Below, piece after piece: positions 7,904-40,637 of a DNA stretch of 64,000 nucleotides. The stretch is taken from sequence record OQ703618.1, one strand, 5' to 3'. Both the position numbers and the translations under genes were made by a program. Under the pieces are notes generated by a model. The model saw only the letters and a list, made by a program, of their open reading frames with translations. It was not told the origin of the DNA and ran no database searches. Every line of letters begins with the position of its first letter. Within the stretch, counting starts at the first letter, position 1. The stretch comes from Escherichia phage GADS24.

Positions 7904-8085
7904 CATTAAAGTATGTTAAAGCCAACCATGTTCCAGTGAACGAACATGCGATGTAAAAACCCGTATCACAAATTGTTCTTAGTACAATAATAAGTGCATT
8001 TTTCATAAGTACCTCAACACAATTGAAAATATTATACAAATCATTGGGATACTAAGCAACCATATTCCGATCCACATTTTAGAGC

Positions 8086-8349
8086 TCATATCTCAACTTC
8101 CGCGAGTTCCATATATCCTTTGTTGATAACCTCTTTAAGGTCTTTAGAAAGAATAACACAAAAATGGTCGTTCATATGCCCATTAACCAGACGAGTTATT
8201 TCGGCTTCAGATGACATATAAGGCACGTCTGAGTCCCAATGAGATAGTCCCAAATGGGTATAAATCATCCCTTCGTCATCTGCAGTGTTGTACATTGAAA
8301 CAAATTCGCCTGTTACTTTATGTTTTGCGTAGAAAAATTTAAATTTCAT
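8086..8349 (-). CDS. Hypothetical protein (87 aa)
   Basis: Minus-strand ORF preceded by an early-promoter cassette. Confidence 0.5.
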   Translation of the reverse strand: MKFKFFYAKHKVTGEFVSMYNTADDEGMIYTHLGLSHWDSDVPYMSSEAEITRLVNGHMNDHFCVILSKDLKEVINKGYMELAEVEI

Positions 8350-8365
8350 GATGTTATCCTCTTTT

Positions 8366-8404
8366 AGATAGGACTACTATATCATAGTCCTACTTAGTTG
8401 TAAA
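8366..8404 (-). promoter_or_regulatory. Early promoter/stem-loop cassette
   Basis: Minus strand ATTTAC..GGACTATG-ATATAG-TAGTCCTATC (inverted repeat around -10). Confidence 0.45.
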
Positions 8405-8417
8405 TACTTTTATGAAA

Positions 8418-9038
8418 TTAAAGTTGAAGATACCACCCGTTGTAGTTGCTCTTGCGGACGATTTTCTTTAGGTCTTCATGGTCTCCCACAAACTTTATAG
8501 AATAAGAGAAGACGTCAGGTGAGGTTTCTTTGGCATCTAATATAATAATGCAATCTGCGACTCGATGGTTCAAGAAGGGGCCTATATTGATTCCATTACC
8601 ACCCGGATAATCACCACTGTATCCTGTGGTAACCGAAATCCATTTAGAATCTATCTGATGTGTCTTGACTTCTACACGAATTCCACAATACTTCGGATGG
8701 GCTAACACGTCCCATGCATACGTGTACGGGTCTTCTACGTCTTCAATACCTTTATTAACATATCCGTCTAGCCAATTTGCTACTACATACTCTGCAAAGA
8801 CCGCAACCTTACAACGTCGAACTACATCTTCTTTGTTTTGGTCAGGATTTTGGCTCAGGGAATACCGAGCAGTGTCAGCAATCTTCACCTTCATTTCACT
8901 AGTCAAAAACTCATTCGACAGGATAAATGTCGGAAGATTCTTCAGTCTCAACAGTCCCAAGTTCGTCTTTACCATAGATACCTCTGATGTGTAGTTCGCC
9001 AAAATAAATGCGGTCACCTTCTTCAAGATATTCTGCAT
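8418..9038 (-). CDS. Hypothetical protein (206 aa); occupies the position of denB (endonuclease IV) in T4
   Basis: Assignment by synteny only (between rIIB and ndd); sequence not recognised. Confidence 0.5.
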   Translation of the reverse strand: MQNILKKVTAFILANYTSEVSMVKTNLGLLRLKNLPTFILSNEFLTSEMKVKIADTARYSLSQNPDQNKEDVVRRCKVAVFAEYVVANWLDGYVNKGIEDVEDPYTYAWDVLAHPKYCGIRVEVKTHQIDSKWISVTTGYSGDYPGGNGINIGPFLNHRVADCIIILDAKETSPDVFSYSIKFVGDHEDLKKIVRKSNYNGWYLQL

Positions 9039-9198
9039 CTACAGGCGGAATTTCAATAACAACTTCGTCACATTCTAACCACCCGTAGTGTGCATCGCCA
9101 GGATGTTTTACCAATTTAGCACAATAAACTGATTTACATTTATGATGGCCACGAAGATTAGCGATTTTGGATTCTGATACGTCAAATGGATGAATCAT
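8911..9198 (-). CDS. Hypothetical protein (about 95 aa from internal Met)
   Basis: ORF downstream of rIIB; track start overlaps rIIB so trimmed to internal ATG (MIHPFDV). Confidence 0.4.
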   Translation of the reverse strand: MIHPFDVSESKIANLRGHHKCKSVYCAKLVKHPGDAHYGWLECDEVVIEIPPVDAEYLEEGDRIYFGELHIRGIYGKDELGTVETEESSDIYPVE

Positions 9199-9208
9199 AA
9201 TTACCCCT

Positions 9209-9233
9209 AAAGAAAAAGGGGACCGAAGTCCCC
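9209..9233 (-). terminator. Rho-independent terminator downstream of rIIB
   Basis: GGGGAC-UUCG-GUCCCC followed by TTTTTCTTT. Confidence 0.55.
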
Positions 9234-9238
9234 AATTA

Positions 9239-10174
9239 TTATTCTGCAAATAATTCAGTAACGTCTGAAATTACTTCATAACGACAAGTACGCATCTTAG
9301 CATCGCCGTAGTCAACTGGGATGGACACAACATCACGTGGATGAACTTTAACCTTAACAACTTTATCTGAGCTAGAACCAAAGTAACGAATATATGATTT
9401 AGCACAAACATGTAGACCACGGGAACAAGTTTGTGTATCATCATCGTTAACACGAGTACGAGGCATTGAAACAACTTTACCAGGTGAGTTATCAAATGTA
9501 CCACTATAGCAGTCTAAATAGTCCTTACGAACTACTTTCCACGCATAGAAATGCCCATCTTCAGTGATTTCAATATCGTTTGCAACCAAGAAGTCGAATA
9601 AACGTTGTACAGCTTTTTCGCTTGGGTTTTCTAACAGGTTTTCAAGGAATGGCAGATAGAATTTAAAGTCTTCGCCTTTTTCCATAGAATCAATAATACG
9701 ATTAACCAGCCCTGAACGAATCTCTATACCTTGATAAAATAAACTACCACCTTCAATAGTAACATTACCATCAACAAACTTAGTAATAGCTTTCTTGACG
9801 TTAATAAGTTCGACAGCTTTACTAAGGTTTCCTGCGACCAGATTAGCTTTAATTTCTTCAAAATTTGCATGACTTGATGGAGTCGCATTGTATGCTACGC
9901 GTCCTTCAATAATTGAAATAAATTTAGATGACGCGTTCCATACGATTTCAGGACGATGTCCGCCGATAATAGGTTCATCATTTTCTGGGACCTGTTCTTC
10001 GTCTTCAAATTCAGCTGCTTTCTCTTCAGCTTTAAAATTCTTAACAATCTTACGAAGAGTATCTGTTGAAATGTCGAAGTAATCGGCAATTTCTTTACGG
10101 GTCCATTTGCCTGATTCGACCAGGCCGTAAGCTTCTAACTGTTCTTCTTGGGGCAAGCATTTGATATTGTACAT
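9239..10174 (-). CDS. rIIB: rIIB protein (lysis inhibition / Rex exclusion)
   Basis: 311 aa (T4 rIIB 312 aa); immediately downstream of rIIA. Confidence 0.85.
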   Translation of the reverse strand: MYNIKCLPQEEQLEAYGLVESGKWTRKEIADYFDISTDTLRKIVKNFKAEEKAAEFEDEEQVPENDEPIIGGHRPEIVWNASSKFISIIEGRVAYNATPSSHANFEEIKANLVAGNLSKAVELINVKKAITKFVDGNVTIEGGSLFYQGIEIRSGLVNRIIDSMEKGEDFKFYLPFLENLLENPSEKAVQRLFDFLVANDIEITEDGHFYAWKVVRKDYLDCYSGTFDNSPGKVVSMPRTRVNDDDTQTCSRGLHVCAKSYIRYFGSSSDKVVKVKVHPRDVVSIPVDYGDAKMRTCRYEVISDVTELFAE

Positions 10175-10183
10175 AATGTTTCC

Positions 10184-12397
10184 TTATTTGGCCGCTTCCA
10201 CGGCCTTCATGAATTTAACGATTTGAGCGACCTGTTCTTTAGAAAGAGTACCACGTCGTCCCATGTATTCTGACACAATATGATAATTGGTTTCAAATTC
10301 AATAACCATTTTATCATCATTATCGTAAGCATTATCTTTAAGCTTATCGAAAATTTTAGCACACAGTTCTAACTTCCTGTTCAGGTCTCTGTTATTAGCA
10401 CCTGCGAATCGATTCCATCCCCAACGATTATTTACTGTTGAAAGTTTTGCAAAATCTTTACTGATTTCTTTGTTCTTAGAGCTAAAATACTTACTAAGGA
10501 AGTTAAGCTCTTCATTACGAGTAATATGGTTTAGATAGGGCTGTGCTCTACGACTTGGTGATACATACTCATCATAATCTACTTTATCGATTAGCGTAAT
10601 GTAGTCATTAATTGATTTTTCGAACAAGCATTCTACTTCACCAAGTTTACGAACTTTCTTAGCAATCTGTGGGCGGACCACAGTGAACTCTTTAATACCT
10701 GACAAATCGGCAATACGAGTCAAGAAACCAGAATCATAGTTCAACCAACCTTTATCTGCGTCAAGACATTCAGCATTAGAACGATTACGAACTATAGCAT
10801 AACCTTGGATTTCATCAGCTTCACTCGCCGGAATAAAGAGATCTTCTGATACCCAAACATCGTTTTCGTTCTTAAAGAACCGATGAGCACTTGGGGATTT
10901 AGGACGAGGCCCATTAGAACGAGTCTTGACTTCAATCCATGGCTTAACGATTTGTAAAAGCTCTGAAGTCTTGTACATGTTAATGTTGTCGCCATCAAAG
11001 ATAACTTTAAGGCGTTCCAGAAGTTTCATTGCATCTTCGTCTGTAGGGTCAACGAATAGTACGCTTTTACCAAAACCGCGTGGAACTTTACCGGTTAATT
11101 TAACCTCGTCTTTAGACATTTCAATTGAATTAAGAGCTCGCATTAATGGAACACGTCCCTTAACGTCGTCAATAACAATTTCAACGTTTTTAATGTTAAT
11201 GCCAATCAGACTGTTAATTGAAATAGTTGCAGATGAGCTACCACTTTCACGAATACGACGAAGACGAGGGTCTTCAATGATATCGTATACGACGCCGAGA
11301 TTACACCATTCGGGTCCCATTTTAAAACGTTTGTACAACTCAGAATAAGTTAGTTGTTCTTTAGAATATTTCAGAGATTCAATATTAGTCCCAGCCTTTT
11401 CCATGTATTTGCGAGCGGTATAGCCAAGAGAATCAATTTCACGGAACACATGACGCGGGTATTTACAATCAATCCATTTCTTAGAATCTTCAGCGAACAA
11501 TTTAGCATCGATTTCTGCAACGCGTTTATGGATATTTGCTACTGTACGTTTATCAAATGACAATGCTTCACGAGACGGGGCTACATCTAGTTCACCCATA
11601 GGGAATTTAATATAAGCTGTAGTGCATCGCGTCATCATCCATGTTTGTTCTTTAATAACACTTCCGATTGGATACACAATACCACCATAAACAGCCATGA
11701 TATTACCACGTTCACCCCATGGAGCTTCCTTGGCCAAATATACATCATCAAATTCAGGAAAGTATTTGATATCTTTAACACCACGAACTTCTGCAATATC
11801 ACCTAGAGGACGCATAACATAAGCAATTTCGGATGCGAACTTTTCAAAATCTTCTGGGTTAACAGGCACAACTACTTCAACGCCAGTCCGGTCATCAGGT
11901 CCCATCTTATCTACGAAGGTTGGCTTAATTTGTGGACCACTGTCATCTTGGTAGATTACGTAACCACGAACTTCACCATTGTGATAAGACGTAAGGTTAA
12001 ACGTATCGGTATATGCTAGTGGAGCTTTAGAGCCGAGTCCGAATCCACCAATGAAATCGTTACTCGATGTTTTAGTTGAAGCAAAATATGAGTTATAGAT
12101 TCCTGGCTCTTCGTCATTACCTCGAATGGTGAAATCACTCATACCAGGACCAAAGTCTCTAACTACAAAACGTGGGTCTAAACGACCTGGAGCCTGAACA
12201 ATAAACTTATCAGTGCAACCATTAAGAATTTGTCCATCGATACAGTTTGTGATTAATTCACGTACACAAGCCAATTCTTTGTTTGTATAAAGGTCATTAG
12301 ACAAAATCTTATAAACTTTGCTATTGCCTTGAATAGTAAATGCTGTGCTCTTACCGCCTGAGCCAATAATCGTTTCTTTAGCCGTTTCAATAATCAT
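10184..12397 (-). CDS. rIIA: rIIA protein
   Basis: 737 aa; N-terminus MIIETAKETIIGSGGKS..KVYKILSNDLYTNK resembles recalled T4 rIIA. Confidence 0.9.
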   Translation of the reverse strand: MIIETAKETIIGSGGKSTAFTIQGNSKVYKILSNDLYTNKELACVRELITNCIDGQILNGCTDKFIVQAPGRLDPRFVVRDFGPGMSDFTIRGNDEEPGIYNSYFASTKTSSNDFIGGFGLGSKAPLAYTDTFNLTSYHNGEVRGYVIYQDDSGPQIKPTFVDKMGPDDRTGVEVVVPVNPEDFEKFASEIAYVMRPLGDIAEVRGVKDIKYFPEFDDVYLAKEAPWGERGNIMAVYGGIVYPIGSVIKEQTWMMTRCTTAYIKFPMGELDVAPSREALSFDKRTVANIHKRVAEIDAKLFAEDSKKWIDCKYPRHVFREIDSLGYTARKYMEKAGTNIESLKYSKEQLTYSELYKRFKMGPEWCNLGVVYDIIEDPRLRRIRESGSSSATISINSLIGINIKNVEIVIDDVKGRVPLMRALNSIEMSKDEVKLTGKVPRGFGKSVLFVDPTDEDAMKLLERLKVIFDGDNINMYKTSELLQIVKPWIEVKTRSNGPRPKSPSAHRFFKNENDVWVSEDLFIPASEADEIQGYAIVRNRSNAECLDADKGWLNYDSGFLTRIADLSGIKEFTVVRPQIAKKVRKLGEVECLFEKSINDYITLIDKVDYDEYVSPSRRAQPYLNHITRNEELNFLSKYFSSKNKEISKDFAKLSTVNNRWGWNRFAGANNRDLNRKLELCAKIFDKLKDNAYDNDDKMVIEFETNYHIVSEYMGRRGTLSKEQVAQIVKFMKAVEAAK

Positions 12398-12702: not shown

Positions 12703-13803
12703 TTACGCTGTGAAGATTTTATCCCACATCGCAACAACTGCATCTCGGTTATACTTCTTCCATACTGCTTCAGCGCGTTTAACTCGAGCTTCGTATGTGT
12801 CAGTGAATTCTAATACAGCTTTTGTGTAAAGCGCAACTACTTCTTTCTTAGGAGTAGAGGAATCAATTTCTACACGCACAGTATCTGGGTCGTATTCGAA
12901 TGTCGCATGAGGATAATCCTTAAAAACTAACTGGATTACAGGGACACCTTTAGAGATGGCTTCAATAGAACTATTCTCTACTGTACCTGTGTCAGGACAC
13001 GTATTAATAAGTGCTTTAGCTGTTTTAAGACGTTCCATGATTTCACTGTGTGGAGCATCAATAATAACAGGATATTTAGCTGGTGGTGCCCATTTACTAG
13101 GACAGTATCCTACACCATTTTCGCCTAGTGCTTTAATCGCTTCAAGAGCAACATCAGTACGACGCATTTTAGTGTCATAACGTTGTGCACTAATAATCAA
13201 ATCAGTTGCCGGGAGAACTTCTGGTTTTTCAGTCAAACAAATAACCGGATAATCTTCGGCTTCAAACAACGGATTTGCTCGCCAATAATCATAATCAATT
13301 TTGTCAGTCAGACCTGAAGTCATATAACAATATTTGCGTTCAAATTCACGGAAGGCTTTAGTAGGAGCATAACTCTTACCACCATTCTTATGAATTTGAA
13401 TAGTCTGGTCCCAAATTTGAACAATGCCACGAGATACCGGTTCAAATGGTGTTGCCATAAAATTCTTATGAACTTTAGAGAGACCTGCGTCTTTAATTGC
13501 CTGAACGGTTAGTTTAGTCGGTTCCATAGTAACAACAAAATCGTATTCATGTATGCCGGCTAGTTCGACAATCTTACGAGCCATAGTATAACTCATACCT
13601 AGACTGAATTTAGTCAGATGTCCAACAGGGTGGTGTGTAACTTTCCAGTCACCAAACGTGTCATTATCAAAGCCGATATAATCAATATCAGCACCGATGG
13701 ACACAAGATATTTCAACACATTTAAATGTACTGCTTCAAGACCACCTTGTACACGGTCAGGATTAAATGGGACTGCACGAGATGGGATAAACATAACTTT
13801 CAT
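12703..13803 (-). CDS. GT-B fold glycosyltransferase; candidate hmC-DNA sugar transferase (arabinosyltransferase-like)
   Basis: 366 aa; C-terminal GT4-like E-x7-E motif (VENSSIEAISKGVPVI); lies between rIIA.1 and gene 39 where T4 has gene 60; no alpha/beta-gt elsewhere in the window. Confidence 0.75.
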   Translation of the reverse strand: MKVMFIPSRAVPFNPDRVQGGLEAVHLNVLKYLVSIGADIDYIGFDNDTFGDWKVTHHPVGHLTKFSLGMSYTMARKIVELAGIHEYDFVVTMEPTKLTVQAIKDAGLSKVHKNFMATPFEPVSRGIVQIWDQTIQIHKNGGKSYAPTKAFREFERKYCYMTSGLTDKIDYDYWRANPLFEAEDYPVICLTEKPEVLPATDLIISAQRYDTKMRRTDVALEAIKALGENGVGYCPSKWAPPAKYPVIIDAPHSEIMERLKTAKALINTCPDTGTVENSSIEAISKGVPVIQLVFKDYPHATFEYDPDTVRVEIDSSTPKKEVVALYTKAVLEFTDTYEARVKRAEAVWKKYNRDAVVAMWDKIFTA

Positions 13804-34635: not shown

Positions 34636-35535
34636 TTATTCCTCGATTACGACATCTTCGTATTTAGGTATATTATACGGTGAAGAAATTAAAGCATTAA
34701 AGTAGATGAACTCGCCAAGACCTGGATGGAATACTTCTTCAGGATTTTCGAAATATTGAATCTTCGGCCGTCCTTTAAGAATTTGATAGTACTCAGTTTT
34801 AGTTGGTTTAAAAATTCGAATCAGCGCTTCTTCAGGATACTTATTTCTATCGAAGCTATTATTTGGATCGGTTACATAAAGCGGTTGACCTAATTGAATT
34901 GCACATTCAACCACTTGTTCAAAACGATAGCACGGGTCACTAATTCGAAATGGATGAAAAATACCATCTAGATGAATAGGAGCCAAATCACCTACAAAAC
35001 GCTGCATGATGGAAGGACGTATAACTTTCTGGGTTACGATAATCTTATTACCATCTGCACCAGCGTTAACCAGCACTTCCTTTTGACGTTCATTCAACAC
35101 AGTAGTTTGAAGTGAACGATTAACCGACAACATGTCGGTTTTTAAGAATTCGTCAATATAAAAACGTGGTTTATTAGGGTCTGCAGTGATATTGAAATTG
35201 AATTCTACATCAAAAGCTCCGTCATATCCAGTGATATCTGTTATTAGAAAATCACAATCATAATAAGCAATTAATGAATCAACCACAAATTCATTTTCAG
35301 ACCAGAAATATTTACGAGTGTTATACGCGTTATCTTTATACCATAACGGAACAAACTTAAATTCTGGGAAAAGACGTTCACATTCTTTAATATCAGATGC
35401 ATTACGTGGATATGTAATAACATCACCCGGATTAGCACGGTGCAAATGAAGTTGGAAGTTGCCATCCTTAAGGATAGCATACTCTCCAGTTTCATAAGAC
35501 CGCATACTCAAGATAGGTACGCGGAAAATAGCCAT
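34636..35535 (-). CDS. Hypothetical protein (299 aa) in the modification cluster; possible transferase
   Basis: Immediately downstream of gene 42 with ATGA overlap; Asp-rich YYDCDF segment; no family recognised. Confidence 0.55.
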   Translation of the reverse strand: MAIFRVPILSMRSYETGEYAILKDGNFQLHLHRANPGDVITYPRNASDIKECERLFPEFKFVPLWYKDNAYNTRKYFWSENEFVVDSLIAYYDCDFLITDITGYDGAFDVEFNFNITADPNKPRFYIDEFLKTDMLSVNRSLQTTVLNERQKEVLVNAGADGNKIIVTQKVIRPSIMQRFVGDLAPIHLDGIFHPFRISDPCYRFEQVVECAIQLGQPLYVTDPNNSFDRNKYPEEALIRIFKPTKTEYYQILKGRPKIQYFENPEEVFHPGLGEFIYFNALISSPYNIPKYEDVVIEE

Positions 35536-36251
35536 TAGTCAAGGAATCCTTTAACATAATCAAAATCACGTTCAAACACATGGGCACTTACCATGGTATG
35601 AGTATAATCACCAACTTCTACACCACATTCGTTAGCGATATAATGAAGTAATTTTCCTTGGAGATAAAAATCCAACTGCATAACAACAGCACAGTTCTGA
35701 GAACGCATATGGCAGTGGGTATAAAGCTTACCATCACGAATATAATAAGTCACTGAGTCAGTACATGGATATTCAAGCGTTTCGTCCGAATCAAGCAAAG
35801 CCTGATCAGAACTTTCTAGAATTTGGAACACAACTCTTCGAGAGTTAGGTTTCTCTTTAAGTTCTTTGAGAAGAGCTGGTAACTGGGCCGCAATTCGTGG
35901 ACCATAGAAAGTGTTGAAGTTTGCAGGCAAAGCATCTGATTTCGGTTTAGAAATAAATTTAGCAACGTTAGGATATGCCTTAAATGCTTCTTCTGCATCA
36001 GTTCCGCCAGAAATCATAAATTTCCAGAAATCTTCGGCATATTCATAAGAGATGCGGTTAATACGTGGGTCGGTCATTTTGAATGATGATGGAGTGTCAA
36101 CAACTACTGTCATAGACCCAATTTCATTACAACGTCCAATACGAGAATCAGTTACGAATTCCGGGTTTTCTAAAATCTCACGATTGACTGCTTTAAATGC
36201 GGATTGAAAATCTGCGGCTTTAATATATTTCATTGTGTTATGTTTTCCCAT
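35535..36251 (-). CDS. 42: dCMP hydroxymethylase (thymidylate synthase family), gene 42
   Basis: 238 aa; TS-family core with nucleophile Cys in YPCTDS, RS dyad 20-21 residues later and Asp at the position of TS Asn177 (cytosine specificity). Confidence 0.75.
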   Translation of the reverse strand: MGKHNTMKYIKAADFQSAFKAVNREILENPEFVTDSRIGRCNEIGSMTVVVDTPSSFKMTDPRINRISYEYAEDFWKFMISGGTDAEEAFKAYPNVAKFISKPKSDALPANFNTFYGPRIAAQLPALLKELKEKPNSRRVVFQILESSDQALLDSDETLEYPCTDSVTYYIRDGKLYTHCHMRSQNCAVVMQLDFYLQGKLLHYIANECGVEVGDYTHTMVSAHVFERDFDYVKGFLD

Positions 36252-36292: not shown

Positions 36293-36532
36293 TTATTTGA
36301 ATTTCTTAGCGATGTTGATATAACGTAGAGCTTCGGCATCGATACTTCTAAGGACACTATGAAGGAATGCGTCGGCATAGTATTCTAGTTGAACAGGTTC
36401 TTTAATCGCTTTAGCCGCTTTAGTTTCAAACAGGCCCATAAGGGCCTTTTTAAGAATTTGTTCGTTGCTGGTAATTTTAATAGTCAAAATCTCTTCATTA
36501 AGTTGGTGGTTAAAAGTTTTTCTAGAAATCAT
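36293..36532 (-). CDS. Hypothetical protein (79 aa)
   Basis: Small ORF between the U32-like gene and gene 42. Confidence 0.45.
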   Translation of the reverse strand: MISRKTFNHQLNEEILTIKITSNEQILKKALMGLFETKAAKAIKEPVQLEYYADAFLHSVLRSIDAEALRYINIAKKFK

Positions 36533-37689
36533 TCCGGGTACCTCAAAGCGTCGTCAGAGTTAGTTATATCAATAATAGATATAGAATTTTCTGATAACCC
36601 ATTTTTAGATAACTGACGTTTATAATATCTTTCACAATATGTACACGTCGTCCCGCAGATTTCATTAGCACAATCGAAATCTGGATGTCTGAACCACCTT
36701 TTTTCTAAAAAGCCGTCTAACAAAGAGGTTTCAATATTTACCGTATGTGAAAACTCGGTCTCATTTTCAAGAGTGAAAATGGTCTCTAAAGGCTTCCACA
36801 GTTCTAACAAATTACCTTCAAACTTTTCAGAAGCGTATGCTTCAAGAACTTTCAAAATGTAGTCTGTGCTACCTGTACGTCCTGAAACTTTGAATTGAGT
36901 GATACCAATATCATTATAAAGTTTCAAATCTTGTGGACGAACAAAACGAGTTCTCAACCAGTTAAATGGGTCTGTATCACGAGCTTTAATACAGTGCTGC
37001 ATAGGATATCCATTTAAGGATTTAGCATCATCAGCTGTAACATCAGTACTATGGAAAATATAGCAAGAGTCACGATAGCTACAATGTGTTGTATACCCTT
37101 TACCAGCATTAGAACAGAACTCATTTACAAGAACTTCAAATATTATATTGTTCTTATTGCAAAACTCTGCTGCACGCTTCAGGAAAGAAACTGAACGGTT
37201 CTTATGAATTCCACAGCAGACCTTTTTGATATTATACTGGTCATGTAAGTATTTGATTTGAGTTACAGCATCGACATGTAAAATTGTTGAAACTTCAATC
37301 TCAATGTCTTTATTGACTTCACGAACAATTTCCATAACAACAGGGTTAGCGATAGTAATACGCCATACGCCTATTGACCAAAGATACTGAACATAATCCT
37401 GAATAGCTTTCTTCTTCCACTCAACTAGTTCTCTTTTTGAACCGGGATTTATCGTGTTGAGTGTATAGTTAAAGCAAATACCTAATTCGTTACAACGTTT
37501 AACGTAATCTTCTAACATCTTTTTGTCAACGTCAGGAAGCCTAAAATCAGGTCTGGCTGCTACAAAAGCCATTTCTCTTGTAGAGCCGTATACTTCGTTT
37601 ATCAAGCTATTAGGATAAGTTTTATTGAGCTCTACGATTTTATCAAGAAGAGCTAAATCAAAATTCGTTCCGATTTTAAAAGTATTCAT
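36529..37689 (-). CDS. Cys-rich TIM-barrel-like enzyme, peptidase-U32-like (putative Fe-S protein), about 386 aa
   Basis: N-terminal pattern resembling U32 proteins (..EVYGS..ARPDF..ICFNYTLNT), central EVLVNEFCSNAGKGYTTHCSY, C-terminal CGTTCTYC (CxxxCxxC); trimmed to first ATG. Confidence 0.55.
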   Translation of the reverse strand: MNTFKIGTNFDLALLDKIVELNKTYPNSLINEVYGSTREMAFVAARPDFRLPDVDKKMLEDYVKRCNELGICFNYTLNTINPGSKRELVEWKKKAIQDYVQYLWSIGVWRITIANPVVMEIVREVNKDIEIEVSTILHVDAVTQIKYLHDQYNIKKVCCGIHKNRSVSFLKRAAEFCNKNNIIFEVLVNEFCSNAGKGYTTHCSYRDSCYIFHSTDVTADDAKSLNGYPMQHCIKARDTDPFNWLRTRFVRPQDLKLYNDIGITQFKVSGRTGSTDYILKVLEAYASEKFEGNLLELWKPLETIFTLENETEFSHTVNIETSLLDGFLEKRWFRHPDFDCANEICGTTCTYCERYYKRQLSKNGLSENSISIIDITNSDDALRYPE

Positions 37690-37748
37690 TTTTTTTTTGC
37701 ATCTCACGTTAATTGACGCGATGGTTTTTGCAGGTCTTACTTAAATTA

Positions 37749-38150
37749 TTATAGATTCGGTTTATATGATTTAAATGTTTCGAATTCGCCTTTATTCATA
37801 AGAGCTTTGAATTCGTCGGGACGCATAGCTTTGTCGTCGATAATCCAATCATATACTGGTTTATGTGTTAGCAAATTATGGTACTTCAAGCCAATGTTTG
37901 CCAAGTTCTGAATAAGACTTGGGAGAATGTCAATTGCTATACGACCAGGACCTACTGACTTCATACCGCGAGCAGTGTAAAGCGTTATGGTATGCCCTGC
38001 ATCATACAGGGCATTAATGGCAGACACCATTTCGACGTCTGGTTTGAAGTTCACGTAATCACGATTGTTATTCCACTCTGTTATACAATCATCGACATCA
38101 AAACAAAGATTAAGCATGTTTTCTACACGGTGCATTAGATTCGTTCCCAT
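37749..38150 (-). CDS. HAD-superfamily phosphatase (KdsC-like sugar-phosphate phosphatase)
   Basis: 133 aa; motif I FDVDDCIT (DxDx[T/V]) near the N-terminus; overlaps the upstream gene. Confidence 0.65.
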   Translation of the reverse strand: MGTNLMHRVENMLNLCFDVDDCITEWNNNRDYVNFKPDVEMVSAINALYDAGHTITLYTARGMKSVGPGRIAIDILPSLIQNLANIGLKYHNLLTHKPVYDWIIDDKAMRPDEFKALMNKGEFETFKSYKPNL

Positions 38151-39820
38151 TGATGAGTGATATCGCCACCGATTGGACGATAGGAAACACCAGTTTCTTT
38201 ATCAGTTAGTACCCATTTACCAGGATTTTTTGTAATCAGAGTAGCCGTTACAGGTTCTGCCATGTCATAACTAATAGAGCCGTCCTGAAGTACACGGCCC
38301 ATGTTACGTAATTGCTTAGTCAGAAGTTCCATACCTTTATAATATGCGGCTACCGCTTTAAGTGGATTATTCTTGAAATAACCACCTAATGCAATCCAGA
38401 TAATTGCTACAGCCAAATGATGATACTCGTTAAATGAACTCATCTTTCCATATTTGTAAACTAATGGATTGATGTTAATAGTCACATTACAAGTTGTTTC
38501 ATCAATAGTAAACTGTCCCCAGGTCGGATTAGCGTTGAATTCATCATAACCTGAAACAGCATAAAGCACTTTAGCTTCATCGTACAATTTTGGCCCGTAA
38601 ATCTTGGTTTCGCCAAAATATCCACGAGGGTCGATAAACTTGACTTCGCCGTTATCAGTAATCATAGTATTACTGAAGTTCGGGTCACCGTGAATAACAG
38701 AGTACTGTCCCTGAGAACGGTTATGATAACGAATAAGGTGTTCTAAAGCTTGTTTCAGCATTGGCTTCAGACGCCCAATCTTAGTGTAGTTCACATGTGT
38801 GATTTTACCAAATGAATCAATCAATGGTTGAATACTTTCACAACGATCAATAACTTTCGTATAGAATTCTTTAGTGAAATCACGACGAACAGTTTCAGGA
38901 CTTACAAAATAAGTGTCTGTGCTGAATTTCAGTGCATCTAAAATTGCATCAACAATTTGTGGACGAGCAAGACTCGATTTAGATTTAATATATTCAAATG
39001 CCGGCTTACCTTTAATGCGTTCCATTTCAAAGTTATTTTCATTAACAGAAACTAACTGAGGAACTGAATCTGATTTCACTTTAAGATACCATGAAATCTC
39101 ATCTTTCTGAAGAGCTCGTCCCTGTTCGGTTAATGCGAATTTAGTTACAGTTTCTTCACCAATTTCAACTGCATTAAAACTACGATTAAGTTCACGAACT
39201 TCATGAGCTTTTTCAAGTTTAGGCATATCACCTAAATCAATTAGATTCATAAGCTCTGATTTATTGAATGCGCCGCTGTAAAGGAATTCTACGAAATCAC
39301 GTCCTTTGCAGTATTCATGAATTTCCTCATCAGTAGAACCCATATAGAATTCCCAGTCTTTGAATTGATAAATTCCTACAACATTACCACCTGTTGAACC
39401 TACGTTAGTGATATTTTCACCGTCGAAATTATATCGACATTCGTCACCCTTAACATAGATTGCGTTAACATTCCAAGACCATGAACCAAAATCAGGAATA
39501 ATATCACACCAGTTAACAATTACATTATGGCCGTCTAAATCTTTGTGTAATTTAGCAAGAGCATAAGCGGAACCATATGCTTCATCAACTGTACGAATAG
39601 TCACATTGAACCCTTCTTGCTCACAATAAGCTCGAACAGTTTCAGCAAATTTTGAATGAACTACTACAATAATTTCATCTGCGCCAAGGTCAGAATAAAT
39701 TGTATACAAATTGCTCAGAATAGTGTCTTGTTTATAGTTAACAAGCACCTTAGGAATATGATGCGTTATTGGATACAAACGAGTTGCCAGTCCAGCACCA
39801 AGAATAACAGCTTTTTTCAT
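38135..39820 (-). CDS. Bifunctional sugar-1-phosphate nucleotidyltransferase (N-terminal) / sugar kinase (C-terminal)
   Basis: 561 aa; N-terminal ILGAGLATRLYPIT..PKVLV (RmlA/GlmU-type G-x-G-x-R); C-terminal HGDPNFSNTMI..FIDPRGYFG resembling APH/choline-kinase catalytic loop. Confidence 0.7.
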   Translation of the reverse strand: MKKAVILGAGLATRLYPITHHIPKVLVNYKQDTILSNLYTIYSDLGADEIIVVVHSKFAETVRAYCEQEGFNVTIRTVDEAYGSAYALAKLHKDLDGHNVIVNWCDIIPDFGSWSWNVNAIYVKGDECRYNFDGENITNVGSTGGNVVGIYQFKDWEFYMGSTDEEIHEYCKGRDFVEFLYSGAFNKSELMNLIDLGDMPKLEKAHEVRELNRSFNAVEIGEETVTKFALTEQGRALQKDEISWYLKVKSDSVPQLVSVNENNFEMERIKGKPAFEYIKSKSSLARPQIVDAILDALKFSTDTYFVSPETVRRDFTKEFYTKVIDRCESIQPLIDSFGKITHVNYTKIGRLKPMLKQALEHLIRYHNRSQGQYSVIHGDPNFSNTMITDNGEVKFIDPRGYFGETKIYGPKLYDEAKVLYAVSGYDEFNANPTWGQFTIDETTCNVTININPLVYKYGKMSSFNEYHHLAVAIIWIALGGYFKNNPLKAVAAYYKGMELLTKQLRNMGRVLQDGSISYDMAEPVTATLITKNPGKWVLTDKETGVSYRPIGGDITHQWERI

Positions 39821-39861: not shown

Positions 39862-40005
39862 CTAGTTAAAGCATTCATACTTTGCTTGTAGTCCAATCAT
39901 AATCCATCCAATTACAAGTGTTGGAATCATTACTGGAGCCGTTAAGCTCCAGTAGATAGTCATGACAAGCATCAATAGTAAAAGTCCTATTGTTATTGCT
40001 TTCAT
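39862..40005 (-). CDS. Small hydrophobic peptide (47 aa)
   Basis: ATG overlaps the stop of the isomerase gene (ATGA); translation MKAITIGLLLLMLVMTIYWSLTAPVMIPTLVIGWIMIGL; below ORF-track cutoff. Confidence 0.3.
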   Translation of the reverse strand: MKAITIGLLLLMLVMTIYWSLTAPVMIPTLVIGWIMIGLQAKYECFN

Positions 40006-40637
40006 TGTTCGCCTCGTAACATGGCACCTAGTGCACCACCAGGGTGGAACTTAAGGAAGTCATTAGAGGTAAATCCACGTTCAGACGAAAGGTTGATAGC
40101 GAACGTATCGATAAGCGCTAACAACAATGTAGTAGACATTGTCGGAGCTAAAGAGTTCTCGTCAACTTCTACCGCGATGCCTGTACAGAAAGAGTAATCA
40201 AAAAGGGCTTCATTTTCTTGCGGAATGTCAGGGTTACAATGTAACAGAATCTGTTTAACCTGAGGACGAATCATACGAAGATGTTTAGCAACACCTATCA
40301 TTTCTTCGGTTTTACCAGAACGACTAATATGAATCAACACATCATTAGGCGCAATGAATCCTGCATCACCGTGAGAATAATGCCCAGTGTTCAAGTACAT
40401 ACTCGGGATACCGAGTGAAGCAAATGTCTCAGAAGCTTTAGTTGCAATATTAGCATTCTTACCAACACCTGTAATAATTACTCGGCTTTCATAATTACTA
40501 AGTCCTGGGCGTCGAAGAGTTTCTAGAATAGCATTATAACGAGCAGGGTTTTGACTAATTACTTTGGCCATAGTAGCCAAAGAAGAAGCTTGTTTTACGA
40601 TTGCGTCAATAGCGATAGTAATAGGAGTAGTTTTCAT
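40002..40637 (-). CDS. SIS-domain sugar-phosphate isomerase (KdsD/GutQ-like arabinose-5-phosphate isomerase)
   Basis: 211 aa; SIS motifs ITGVGKNANIA and SRSGKTEE, C-terminal FHPGGALG as in API enzymes. Confidence 0.75.
   Translation of the reverse strand: MKTTPITIAIDAIVKQASSLATMAKVISQNPARYNAILETLRRPGLSNYESRVIITGVGKNANIATKASETFASLGIPSMYLNTGHYSHGDAGFIAPNDVLIHISRSGKTEEMIGVAKHLRMIRPQVKQILLHCNPDIPQENEALFDYSFCTGIAVEVDENSLAPTMSTTLLLALIDTFAINLSSERGFTSNDFLKFHPGGALGAMLRGEQ

What the first reader, a model, noticed from the sequence alone, without database searches (positions are those of the whole stretch)
38135..39820. Fused nucleotidyltransferase and kinase domains in one 561 aa protein
The N-terminus carries a RmlA/GlmU-type G-x-G-x-R-L nucleotide-binding motif and the C-terminus an APH/choline-kinase-like HGD..N..D catalytic signature. 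Such fusions (for example fucokinase/GDP-fucose pyrophosphorylase, arabinokinase/pyrophosphorylase) salvage free sugars into NDP-sugars. Together with the adjacent HAD phosphatase this implies the phage builds its donor through a free-sugar intermediate rather than a mutase.
Basis: partly seen in the sequence, partly recalled or inferred. Interest (0 to 1): 0.7.

Follow-up and report, generated by a model that had tools for sequence, protein, structure and literature searches.

The report
Phage UDP-arabinose kinase/pyrophosphorylase (AfhE orthologue)
This gene of an RB69-like coliphage encodes a known two-domain enzyme that helps make UDP-arabinose for decorating the phage's DNA cytosines; a 96%-identical protein has been characterised biochemically and reportedly uses a sugar bisphosphate, not a free sugar.

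Summary
Window 38135-39820 (- strand) is an intact 561-aa ORF. It has an N-terminal sugar-1-phosphate nucleotidyltransferase domain (about residues 1-205) and a C-terminal choline-kinase/APH-type kinase domain (about 210-507). It also has a roughly 50-aa tail found only in T4-like members. The window is an RB69-like Mosigvirus.

The protein is the corrected RB69 ORF053c+052c product (Thomas 2018). It is 96% identical to the syntenic HY126 gene product that Lee et al. 2026 equate with AfhE. They report, citing He et al. [quoted passage not shown]

The "free-sugar intermediate" is not supported. The reported route is:
- ribulose-5-P to arabinose-5-P, by the adjacent SIS isomerase;
- to arabinofuranose-1,5-bisphosphate, by this kinase domain;
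- to arabinofuranose-1-P, by the adjacent HAD phosphatase;
- to UDP-arabinofuranose, by this nucleotidyltransferase domain.

This logic matches the NDP-heptose pathway. I could not read He et al. directly and cannot test substrates computationally.

Verdict: already known, low interest. One aside may be new: giant-virus-like contigs and a slime-mould transcriptome encode HAD-SIS-nucleotidyltransferase-kinase in one polypeptide.

The parts
38135..39820 (-). Target gene: 561-aa bifunctional enzyme, the AfhE orthologue and corrected RB69 gp52:53. It has three parts: a nucleotidyltransferase domain (about aa 1-205), an APH/choline-kinase-type kinase domain (about aa 210-507) and a tail specific to T4-like members (about aa 508-561).
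39206..39820 (-). Part encoding the nucleotidyltransferase domain (aa 1-205). Conserved residues are G8AGLATRL15, K24, D106, D195 and D198.
38300..39193 (-). Part encoding the kinase domain (about aa 210-507). Conserved residues are K227, E241, H377GDPNFSN384 and I396DPRG400.
37749..38150 (-). HAD-family phosphatase, the counterpart of AfhF / RB69 gp51. The solved construct matches from Met6, which puts the ATG at 38135, overlapping the target's stop codon (TAATG).
   Evidence: NCBIfam TIGR01689 'capsule biosynthesis phosphatase' matches with E=4e-13, below its cut-off. Residues 6-133 are identical to PDB 9iqw. The stop/start overlap is visible in the sequence.
40002..40637 (-). KdsD/KpsF-like SIS-domain arabinose-5-phosphate isomerase (RB69 gp55 counterpart). 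It supplies arabinose-5-P from ribulose-5-P.
   Evidence: Pfam SIS E=2.6e-10. NCBIfam kpsF E=4.6e-32 and KdsD E=1.2e-30, both below their full-length cut-offs because the protein lacks the CBS part. PHROG 5670 is.
39867..40010 (-). Small ORF of 47 aa encoding a hydrophobic peptide, between the isomerase gene and the target. Its ATG overlaps the isomerase stop codon (ATGA). Its function is unknown.
   Evidence: Read from the sequence. A 144-nt hypothetical CDS is annotated at the same position in HY126.
35535..36251 (-). Thymidylate-synthase homologue (RB69 gp48 counterpart). The literature describes it as a 5-hydroxy-dCMP synthase that makes the acceptor base.
   Evidence: Pfam Thymidylat_synt E=2.4e-15. 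The function comes from PMC13326640.
34636..35535 (-). Putative first DNA arabinosyltransferase (RB69 gp46:47 counterpart).
   Evidence: PHROG 3891. The window is 97.5% identical in DNA to this RB69 region. The role was proposed in PMC13326640.
12703..13803 (-). Second arabinosyltransferase (RB69 ORF003c / gp3 counterpart), which uses the UDP-arabinose made by the target.
   Evidence: 99% identical (362/366) to RB69 NP_861693.1. The role comes from PMC6024577 and PMC13326640.

Best explanation
The ORF is the orthologue of phage HY126 AfhE. It is a bifunctional enzyme that carries out the second and fourth steps of a four-step, phage-encoded route from the host pentose-phosphate pool to UDP-D-arabinofuranose.

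Step 1 (inferred from homology): the adjacent SIS isomerase converts ribulose-5-P to D-arabinose-5-P.

Step 2 (reported for the 96%-identical HY126 protein, inferred here): the C-terminal choline-kinase/APH-fold domain uses ATP to phosphorylate the anomeric hydroxyl. This gives arabinofuranose-1,5-bisphosphate.

Step 3 (reported for HY126 AfhF): the downstream, probably translationally coupled HAD phosphatase removes the 5-phosphate.

Step 4 (reported for HY126, inferred here): the N-terminal RmlA/LicC/MurU-type nucleotidyltransferase domain condenses Araf-1-P with UTP. This gives UDP-Araf and pyrophosphate.

GT-B arabinosyltransferases then decorate 5-hydroxycytosine in phage DNA. The logic (isomerase, anomeric kinase, distal phosphatase, nucleotidyltransferase) is that of NDP-heptose synthesis, built from different kinase and transferase folds.
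For: Orthology:
- The protein is 542/562 identical to HY126 XAN60479.1.
- The gene order is the same in HY126: polymerase, isomerase, small ORF, this gene, HAD, U32-like, ThyA-like, GT, kinase-like, UvsX.
- The window is 97.5% identical in DNA to RB69 across the module.

Literature:
- RB69 ORF053c and ORF052c were shown to be a single 561-aa ORF and tied to UDP-arabinose (PMC6024577).
[quoted passage not shown] AfhF dephosphorylates Araf1,5P to Araf1P (PMC13326640).
- UDP-Araf is accepted in vitro by related phage arabinosyltransferases.
- The 54%-identical Thanatos TH1_060 is essential for phage propagation and inactive on xylose-1-P (PMC12838424).

My own tests:
- Both domains fold with high confidence (pLDDT 93.3).
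- Each domain matches the expected fold.
- All catalytic residues are invariant over 41 homologues: R14, K24, D106, D195 and D198 in the transferase domain; K227, E241, H377, D379, N384 and D397 in the kinase domain.
- The HAD neighbour is identical to a solved structure, 9iqw.
- The module SIS + this fusion + a HAD + a ThyA homologue + a GT recurs in a distant 350-kb phage-like contig, with a different HAD subfamily.
- Single polypeptides fuse HAD-SIS-NT-kinase and keep nearly all 40 family-invariant positions checked.
Against: - The substrate order (kinase before phosphatase) rests on a secondary citation. I could not obtain He et al. 2026.
- Table 1 of the citing paper still carries the alternative free-sugar wording.
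- Nothing I could compute distinguishes arabinose-5-P from free arabinose as the kinase substrate, or UTP from other NTPs.
- As far as I know, characterised APH-fold sugar anomeric kinases such as AmgK and NahK act on unphosphorylated sugars.
- Pfam kinase models stay below their cut-offs for this sequence.
Confidence: 0.85

Rival explanations
1. Free-sugar (salvage-type) route. The HAD phosphatase first hydrolyses arabinose-5-P to free D-arabinose. The kinase domain then phosphorylates free arabinose at C1. The transferase domain makes NDP-arabinose.
For: - Table 1 of PMC13326640 annotates RB69 gp51 as 'dephosphorylates Araf5p to Ara' and the C-terminal domain as 'Phosphorylates Ara to Araf1p'.
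Against: - The text of the same paper, citing biochemical work on HY126, states that AfhE phosphorylates Araf5P to Araf1,5P and that AfhF dephosphorylates the bisphosphate.
- The protein here is 96% identical to the HY126 protein.
- From my own knowledge, the isomerase / kinase / HAD phosphatase / transferase set mirrors the NDP-heptose pathway, which runs through a bisphosphate. Releasing a free pentose would expose the intermediate to host catabolism.
- Several invariant basic residues in the kinase domain (R326, R399, K417) are compatible with an anionic substrate. This is weak evidence.
Confidence: 0.1
2. A LicC/LicA-like phosphocholine (or other amino-alcohol) activating fusion, that is a kinase plus a cytidylyltransferase unrelated to arabinose.
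Against: - No Pfam hit at E<=0.1 is the choline-kinase family.
- Sequence identity to LicC and to choline kinases is only 11-20%.
- The region after the Mg-binding Asp is a family-specific I-D-P-R-G-Y-F-G. From my own knowledge, this is not the choline-kinase motif.
- The gene is always embedded with an arabinose-5-P isomerase, a ThyA homologue and DNA glycosyltransferases.
- The orthologue's arabinose activities are published.
Confidence: 0.01
3. A GT-A-type glycosyltransferase that itself transfers the sugar to DNA.
For: - The CDD 'glycosyltransferase family A superfamily' match prompted this idea (PMC6024577).
- The Thanatos paper keeps it as a candidate glycosyltransferase.
Against: - The domain carries the nucleotidyltransferase signature G-x-G-x-x-T-R-L...P-K. 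It passes the Pfam NTP_transferase cut-off.
- All top structural matches are sugar-1-P nucleotidyltransferases.
- TH1_060 showed no transfer of xylose to DNA or nucleotides.
- Separate GT-B enzymes carry out arabinosyl transfer.
Confidence: 0.01

Closest known systems
AfhE of Escherichia phage HY126 (He et al. 2026, Nat Chem Biol; as described in PMC13326640), equivalent to RB69 gp52:53 / ORF53_52c (Thomas et al. 2018)
   Same: It is 96% identical over the full length, with the same two-domain architecture and the same neighbours. The RB69 copy is essentially the same gene: the region is 97.5% identical in DNA.
   Different: There is nothing functionally relevant. Twenty substitutions and one indel are visible, none at a family-invariant position. 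Unlike the GenBank RB69 record, the window has no frameshift splitting the gene.
NDP-heptose pathway (GmhA isomerase, HldE/HldA or HddA kinase, GmhB HAD phosphatase, HldC/HddC nucleotidyltransferase)
   Different: From my own knowledge, the heptose kinases have a ribokinase/PfkB or GHMP fold, and the HldE transferase domain is cytidylyltransferase-like. Here the kinase has the choline-kinase/APH fold. The sugar is a pentofuranose and the nucleotide is UDP.
AmgK-MurU (MurNAc/GlcNAc anomeric kinase plus MurNAc-1-P uridylyltransferase) and LicA-LicC (choline kinase plus cytidylyltransferase)
   Different: Those systems start from unphosphorylated substrates in salvage pathways and need no phosphatase (my own knowledge). 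Identity is only 11-20%. Here the reported substrate is already phosphorylated at C5.
   Same: One polypeptide carries both a kinase and a pyrophosphorylase activity and produces an NDP-sugar, with D-arabinose as the sugar in the second case.
   Different: Those kinases are GHMP-type and act on free sugars. Their products are GDP-pyranoses (my own knowledge). No Pfam hit here at E<=0.1 is a GHMP kinase family, and the fold is APH/choline-kinase type.

Membership tests
AfhE-type phage arabinose-5-P kinase / UDP-arabinose pyrophosphorylase | Full-length orthology to the characterised HY126 protein | tested here: met
   542/562 identical with one gap.
AfhE-type phage arabinose-5-P kinase / UDP-arabinose pyrophosphorylase | Genomic association with an arabinose-5-P isomerase, a HAD phosphatase, a ThyA-like 5-hydroxy-dCMP synthase and DNA arabinosyltransferases | tested here: met
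   The same association is seen in a distant 350-kb contig.
AfhE-type phage arabinose-5-P kinase / UDP-arabinose pyrophosphorylase | Arabinose-5-P 1-kinase and UDP-arabinose pyrophosphorylase activities | not testable with these tools
   Known only from the literature on HY126, as cited in PMC13326640.
Sugar-1-phosphate nucleotidyltransferase (Pfam PF00483, RmlA/GlmU/LicC/MurU fold) | Score above the Pfam gathering cut-off | tested here: met
   39.1 bits against 21.2, E=8.4e-10, although only profile positions 1-101 of 245 are matched.
Sugar-1-phosphate nucleotidyltransferase (Pfam PF00483, RmlA/GlmU/LicC/MurU fold) | N-terminal G-x-G-T-R-L signature with catalytic Arg and Lys, plus conserved acidic metal ligands | tested here: met
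   The signature is G8AGLATRL15, a variant with the second Gly replaced by Ala. R14, K24, D106, D195 and D198 are invariant in 41 homologues. Assigning the Asp residues as metal ligands is by analogy only.
Sugar-1-phosphate nucleotidyltransferase (Pfam PF00483, RmlA/GlmU/LicC/MurU fold) | Complete nucleotidyltransferase fold | tested here: met
APH / choline-kinase-type kinases (Pfam PF01636 clan) | Score above the Pfam gathering cut-off | tested here: not met
   APH scores 14.3 bits against 23.2, and the other kinase families are also below their cut-offs. The cut-off is met by the 43%-identical homologue P0056, with 25.6 bits.
APH / choline-kinase-type kinases (Pfam PF01636 clan) | Catalytic loop H-x-D-x-x-x-x-N, Mg-binding Asp, and the ATP-binding Lys/Glu pair | tested here: met
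   H377GDPNFSN384, D397, K227 and E241 are all invariant. K227 lies on a strand and E241 in a helix of the model.
APH / choline-kinase-type kinases (Pfam PF01636 clan) | Bilobal kinase fold | tested here: met
Fkp-type fucokinase / GDP-fucose pyrophosphorylase (and trypanosomatid arabinokinase fusions) | GHMP-family kinase domain | tested here: not met
   No Pfam hit at E<=0.1 is a GHMP kinase family. The kinase fold is APH/choline-kinase type.
LicA/LicC phosphocholine activation | Choline-kinase family sequence signature | tested here: not met
   No Pfam hit at E<=0.1 is the choline-kinase family. The sequence after the Mg-binding Asp is the family-specific IDPRGYFG. Identity to choline kinases is 11-14%.
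HldE-type bifunctional heptose kinase / adenylyltransferase | Ribokinase-like (PfkB) kinase domain and cytidylyltransferase-like transferase domain | tested here: not met
   No Pfam hit at E<=0.1 is a PfkB or cytidylyltransferase-like family, and the folds differ. It works like HldE but is not a member.

The most novel reading that the evidence does not exclude
For the window gene itself, nothing novel remains beyond untested details. These are whether it also accepts free D-arabinose, and what the tail of about 50 aa found only in T4-like members does.

The most novel reading my evidence leaves open concerns its relatives. The same NT-kinase unit keeps nearly all 40 family-invariant positions checked. 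It occurs fused behind a beta-phosphoglucomutase-type HAD domain and a KdsD-like isomerase domain in single polypeptides of 890-955 aa. These are found on giant-virus-like contigs (MutS7-HNH, RNA polymerase subunits, B-family polymerase, glycan genes) and in a Ceratiomyxa transcriptome.

This suggests a one-protein ribulose-5-P to NDP-arabinofuranose pathway in viruses of eukaryotes. It probably serves glycans rather than DNA. I found no description of it in one targeted literature search.
Probability: 0.4. Interest if true: 0.45.

Novelty: already known. Interest (0 to 1): 0.15.

Why it matters
UDP-arabinofuranose made by this enzyme feeds the arabinosylation of 5-hydroxycytosine. That modification makes RB69-like phage DNA resistant to many restriction enzymes and shapes its sensitivity to other defence systems (PMC13326640; title of Mahler et al. 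2025). The homologue in phage Thanatos is essential for propagation. All of this has been published, so the value here is correct annotation. Most database records still call the gene 'hypothetical protein', 'bifunctional protein GlmU' or 'nucleotidyl transferase'. The pathway should also be described as running through a bisphosphate rather than a free sugar.

Tried and rejected
- I tried to read the primary biochemical papers, He et al. 2026 and Mahler et al. 2025. Neither is held. A search for 'AfhE/HY126' returned only the citing paper.
- A sequence search of the PDB with the protein and with a 41-sequence profile found only nucleotidyltransferases with significance. Kinase hits were marginal (RIO2, E=0.07). 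No solved structure of this protein turned up. The fold search was needed to establish the kinase domain.
- The promoter and terminator scan across the module gave no more sites than shuffled sequence, so nothing can be said about transcription units.
- I considered and rejected three readings: membership of the Fkp/GHMP fusions, a LicA/LicC-type choline system, and a GT-A glycosyltransferase. See the rivals and membership tests.
- I looked for a computational way to tell arabinose-5-P from free arabinose as the kinase substrate. Only weak hints exist, namely invariant basic residues R326, R399 and K417.
- A literature search for the giant-virus fusion found only a passing mention of an arabinose-5-P isomerase in TetV-1.

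Full report
**What is there**

Window 38135-39820 on the - strand is an uninterrupted ORF of 561 codons, from ATG to TAA. At 37% GC an ORF of this length is not a chance event (about 8e-18). Full-length homologues are found in 363 phage records.

The surrounding genes are those of a T4-like phage: gp43 polymerase, clamp loader, UvsX and gp41. The 6.7-kb module around the ORF is 98.4% identical to phage JN02 and 97.5% identical to RB69. The window is therefore an RB69-like Mosigvirus.

**Checking the observation**

The N-terminal domain passes the Pfam NTP_transferase cut-off (residues 3-99, E=8.4e-10). It matches many sugar-1-phosphate nucleotidyltransferase models in NCBIfam.

The signature is G8-A-G-L-A-T-R-L15 followed by P23-K24. 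It is the canonical motif with Ala in place of the second Gly.

The C-terminal domain carries H377-G-D-P-N-F-S-N384 and I396-D-P-R-G400. Pfam kinase families match there only below their cut-offs, so sequence models alone leave the kinase assignment weak. I took three further steps.

- I aligned 41 homologues down to 28% identity. Invariant positions include R14, K24, D106, D195 and D198 in the first domain. In the second they include K227, E241, H377, G378, D379, N384, D397 and R399.
- An AlphaFold2 model built on that alignment is confident (mean pLDDT 93.3, pTM 0.89).

A 43%-identical homologue also passes the Pfam APH cut-off.

**What it is**

The gene has a history. In the RB69 GenBank record it is split into ORF053c and ORF052c. 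Thomas et al. 2018 re-sequenced the region and found a single-base error. They showed a single 561-residue product of about 64 kDa and proposed a role in making UDP-arabinose (PMC6024577).

Lee et al. 2026 treat RB69 gp52:53 as the counterpart of AfhE of coliphage HY126. Citing He et al. 2026, they state three things (PMC13326640):

- It phosphorylates Araf5P to Araf1,5P.
- The HAD protein AfhF is a Mg-dependent phosphatase that converts Araf1,5P to Araf1P.

The HY126 genome is in the phage collection. The syntenic HY126 protein (XAN60479.1, annotated only as hypothetical) is 542/562 identical to the window's, and the gene order is the same. I take it to be AfhE on the strength of Lee et al.'s equation with RB69 gp52:53.

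The downstream HAD gene of the window is identical over residues 6-133 to PDB entry 9iqw. That construct matches from Met6. Its ATG overlaps the stop codon of the target (TAATG), which is compatible with translational coupling.

**How it most likely works**

1. Ribulose-5-P from the host is isomerised to arabinose-5-P by the KdsD-like SIS protein at 40002-40637. This step is inferred from homology.
2. The kinase domain of the target phosphorylates O1, giving the 1,5-bisphosphate. This is reported for the 96%-identical orthologue and inferred here.
3. The HAD phosphatase at 37749-38150 removes the 5-phosphate. This is reported for HY126 AfhF.
4. The nucleotidyltransferase domain of the target joins Araf-1-P to UTP. 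This is reported for HY126, and UDP-Araf is accepted by related phage transferases in vitro.

The arabinosyltransferases at 34636-35535 and 12703-13803 then decorate 5-hydroxycytosine. The second of these is 99% identical to RB69 gp3. The 5-hydroxycytosine precursor is made by the ThyA homologue at 35535-36251.

The design is that of NDP-heptose biosynthesis, built from other folds.

**Independent support for the functional unit**

- A distant homologue (35% identity) on a 350-kb phage-like contig sits between a SIS gene and a GT2 gene on one side and a HAD gene and a ThyA homologue on the other. The HAD belongs to a different subfamily.
- Some relatives fuse all four activities in one chain.
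- The Thanatos homologue is essential for phage propagation and does not act on xylose-1-P.

The architecture, the link to the arabinose donor and the absence of a mutase are right. The free-sugar intermediate is not supported by the published description.

Two cautions apply. I could not read He et al. itself. Table 1 of Lee et al. still carries the free-sugar wording.

The comparison with fucokinase/GDP-fucose pyrophosphorylase holds at the level of 'what it works like'. It does not hold for family membership. No Pfam hit here at E<=0.1 is a GHMP kinase family, and the fold is APH/choline-kinase type.

It deserves mention because LicC and choline kinases are the best structural matches. Identities are only 11-20%, however. 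No Pfam hit at E<=0.1 is the choline-kinase family, and both the genomic context and the orthologue's reported biochemistry point to arabinose.

**Verdict**

The feature is real, and its function and mechanism are already published for an almost identical protein. Novelty: already known. Interest: low (0.15).

The residual open points are minor:

- direct confirmation of substrate order in this phage;
- nucleotide specificity;
- the role of the tail at residues 508-561, which is conserved in T4-like members and absent from the distant ones.

The most interesting by-product lies outside the window. It is the family of four-domain HAD-SIS-NT-kinase proteins on giant-virus-like contigs and in a slime-mould transcriptome.

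Noticed in passing
Loci L003-L005 (gene at 8001-10781), L007 (10001-12862) and L008 (10001-12679); proteins P0084, P0088, P0089, P0091, P0092, P0096 and P0109: Homologues of 890-955 aa fuse a beta-phosphoglucomutase-type HAD domain, a KdsD-like SIS domain, the nucleotidyltransferase and the kinase in one polypeptide, and they keep nearly all 40 family-invariant positions checked. Their contigs carry MutS7-HNH, RNA polymerase subunits, a B-family DNA polymerase and glycan-synthesis genes, so they look like giant viruses, and one cluster comes from a Ceratiomyxa fruticulosa transcriptome. One targeted literature search found no description of this.
   Followed up: partly
Locus L001, 5135-10997: A 350-kb phage-like contig carries SIS, GT2, the NT-kinase fusion, a Cof-type HAD (Hydrolase_3) and a ThyA homologue side by side. 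The arabinosylation-type module is thus conserved far outside the T4-like phages, with a non-orthologous phosphatase.
   Followed up: partly
Window 36529-37707 (-): A 392-aa peptidase-U32-family protein (Pfam E=7.7e-11, weak UbiU match) sits inside the modification module. From my own knowledge, this family includes oxygen-independent hydroxylases such as RlhA, which makes 5-hydroxycytidine in rRNA, as well as TrhP and UbiU/V. It could be an alternative, anaerobic route to 5-hydroxycytosine. Lee et al. list it only as 'sugar or heterocycle reductase'.
   Followed up: no
Window 39867-40010 (-): A 47-aa strongly hydrophobic ORF (MKAITIGLLLLMLVMTIYWSLTAPVMIPTLVIGWIMIGLQAKYECFN) lies between the isomerase gene and the target. 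Its ATG overlaps the isomerase stop codon. A CDS is annotated at the same place in HY126. Its function is unknown.
   Followed up: no
Window 38138-38299 (-), residues 508-561 of the target: The C-terminal tail has a conserved T-K-x-P-x-K-W-x-L-x-D-x-E-T-G-x-x-Y pattern. It is present in T4-like members down to about 36% identity and absent from the jumbo-phage and giant-virus relatives. Model confidence is lower there (pLDDT 75-85). Its role is unknown.
   Followed up: partly
Window 37749-38150 (-): The HAD phosphatase is identical over residues 6-133 to PDB 9iqw, deposited as 'Capsule biosynthesis protein'. PHROGs labels the family 'phosphoheptose isomerase', which is a misleading name for a phosphatase. 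The solved construct implies a start at Met6 rather than at the first ATG of the ORF.
   Followed up: partly
Loci (for example MN850651, MK962754, KP869111): Many GenBank records annotate this gene as 'bifunctional protein GlmU', 'hypothetical protein' or 'mannose-1-phosphate guanyltransferase'. The RB69 reference records still split it into two ORFs because of a sequencing error corrected in 2018.
   Followed up: no
Locus L008, 1727-4144, and proteins P0106, P0107 and P0111: Further architectures of the same NT-kinase unit exist. One is an 805-aa NT-HAD-kinase protein next to a HAD-NT-kinase fusion that has a nucleoside-deoxyribosyltransferase-like insert. Others are proteins of about 786 aa with a C-terminal cupin / mannose-6-P-isomerase-like domain. 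These suggest variants for other sugars.
   Followed up: no
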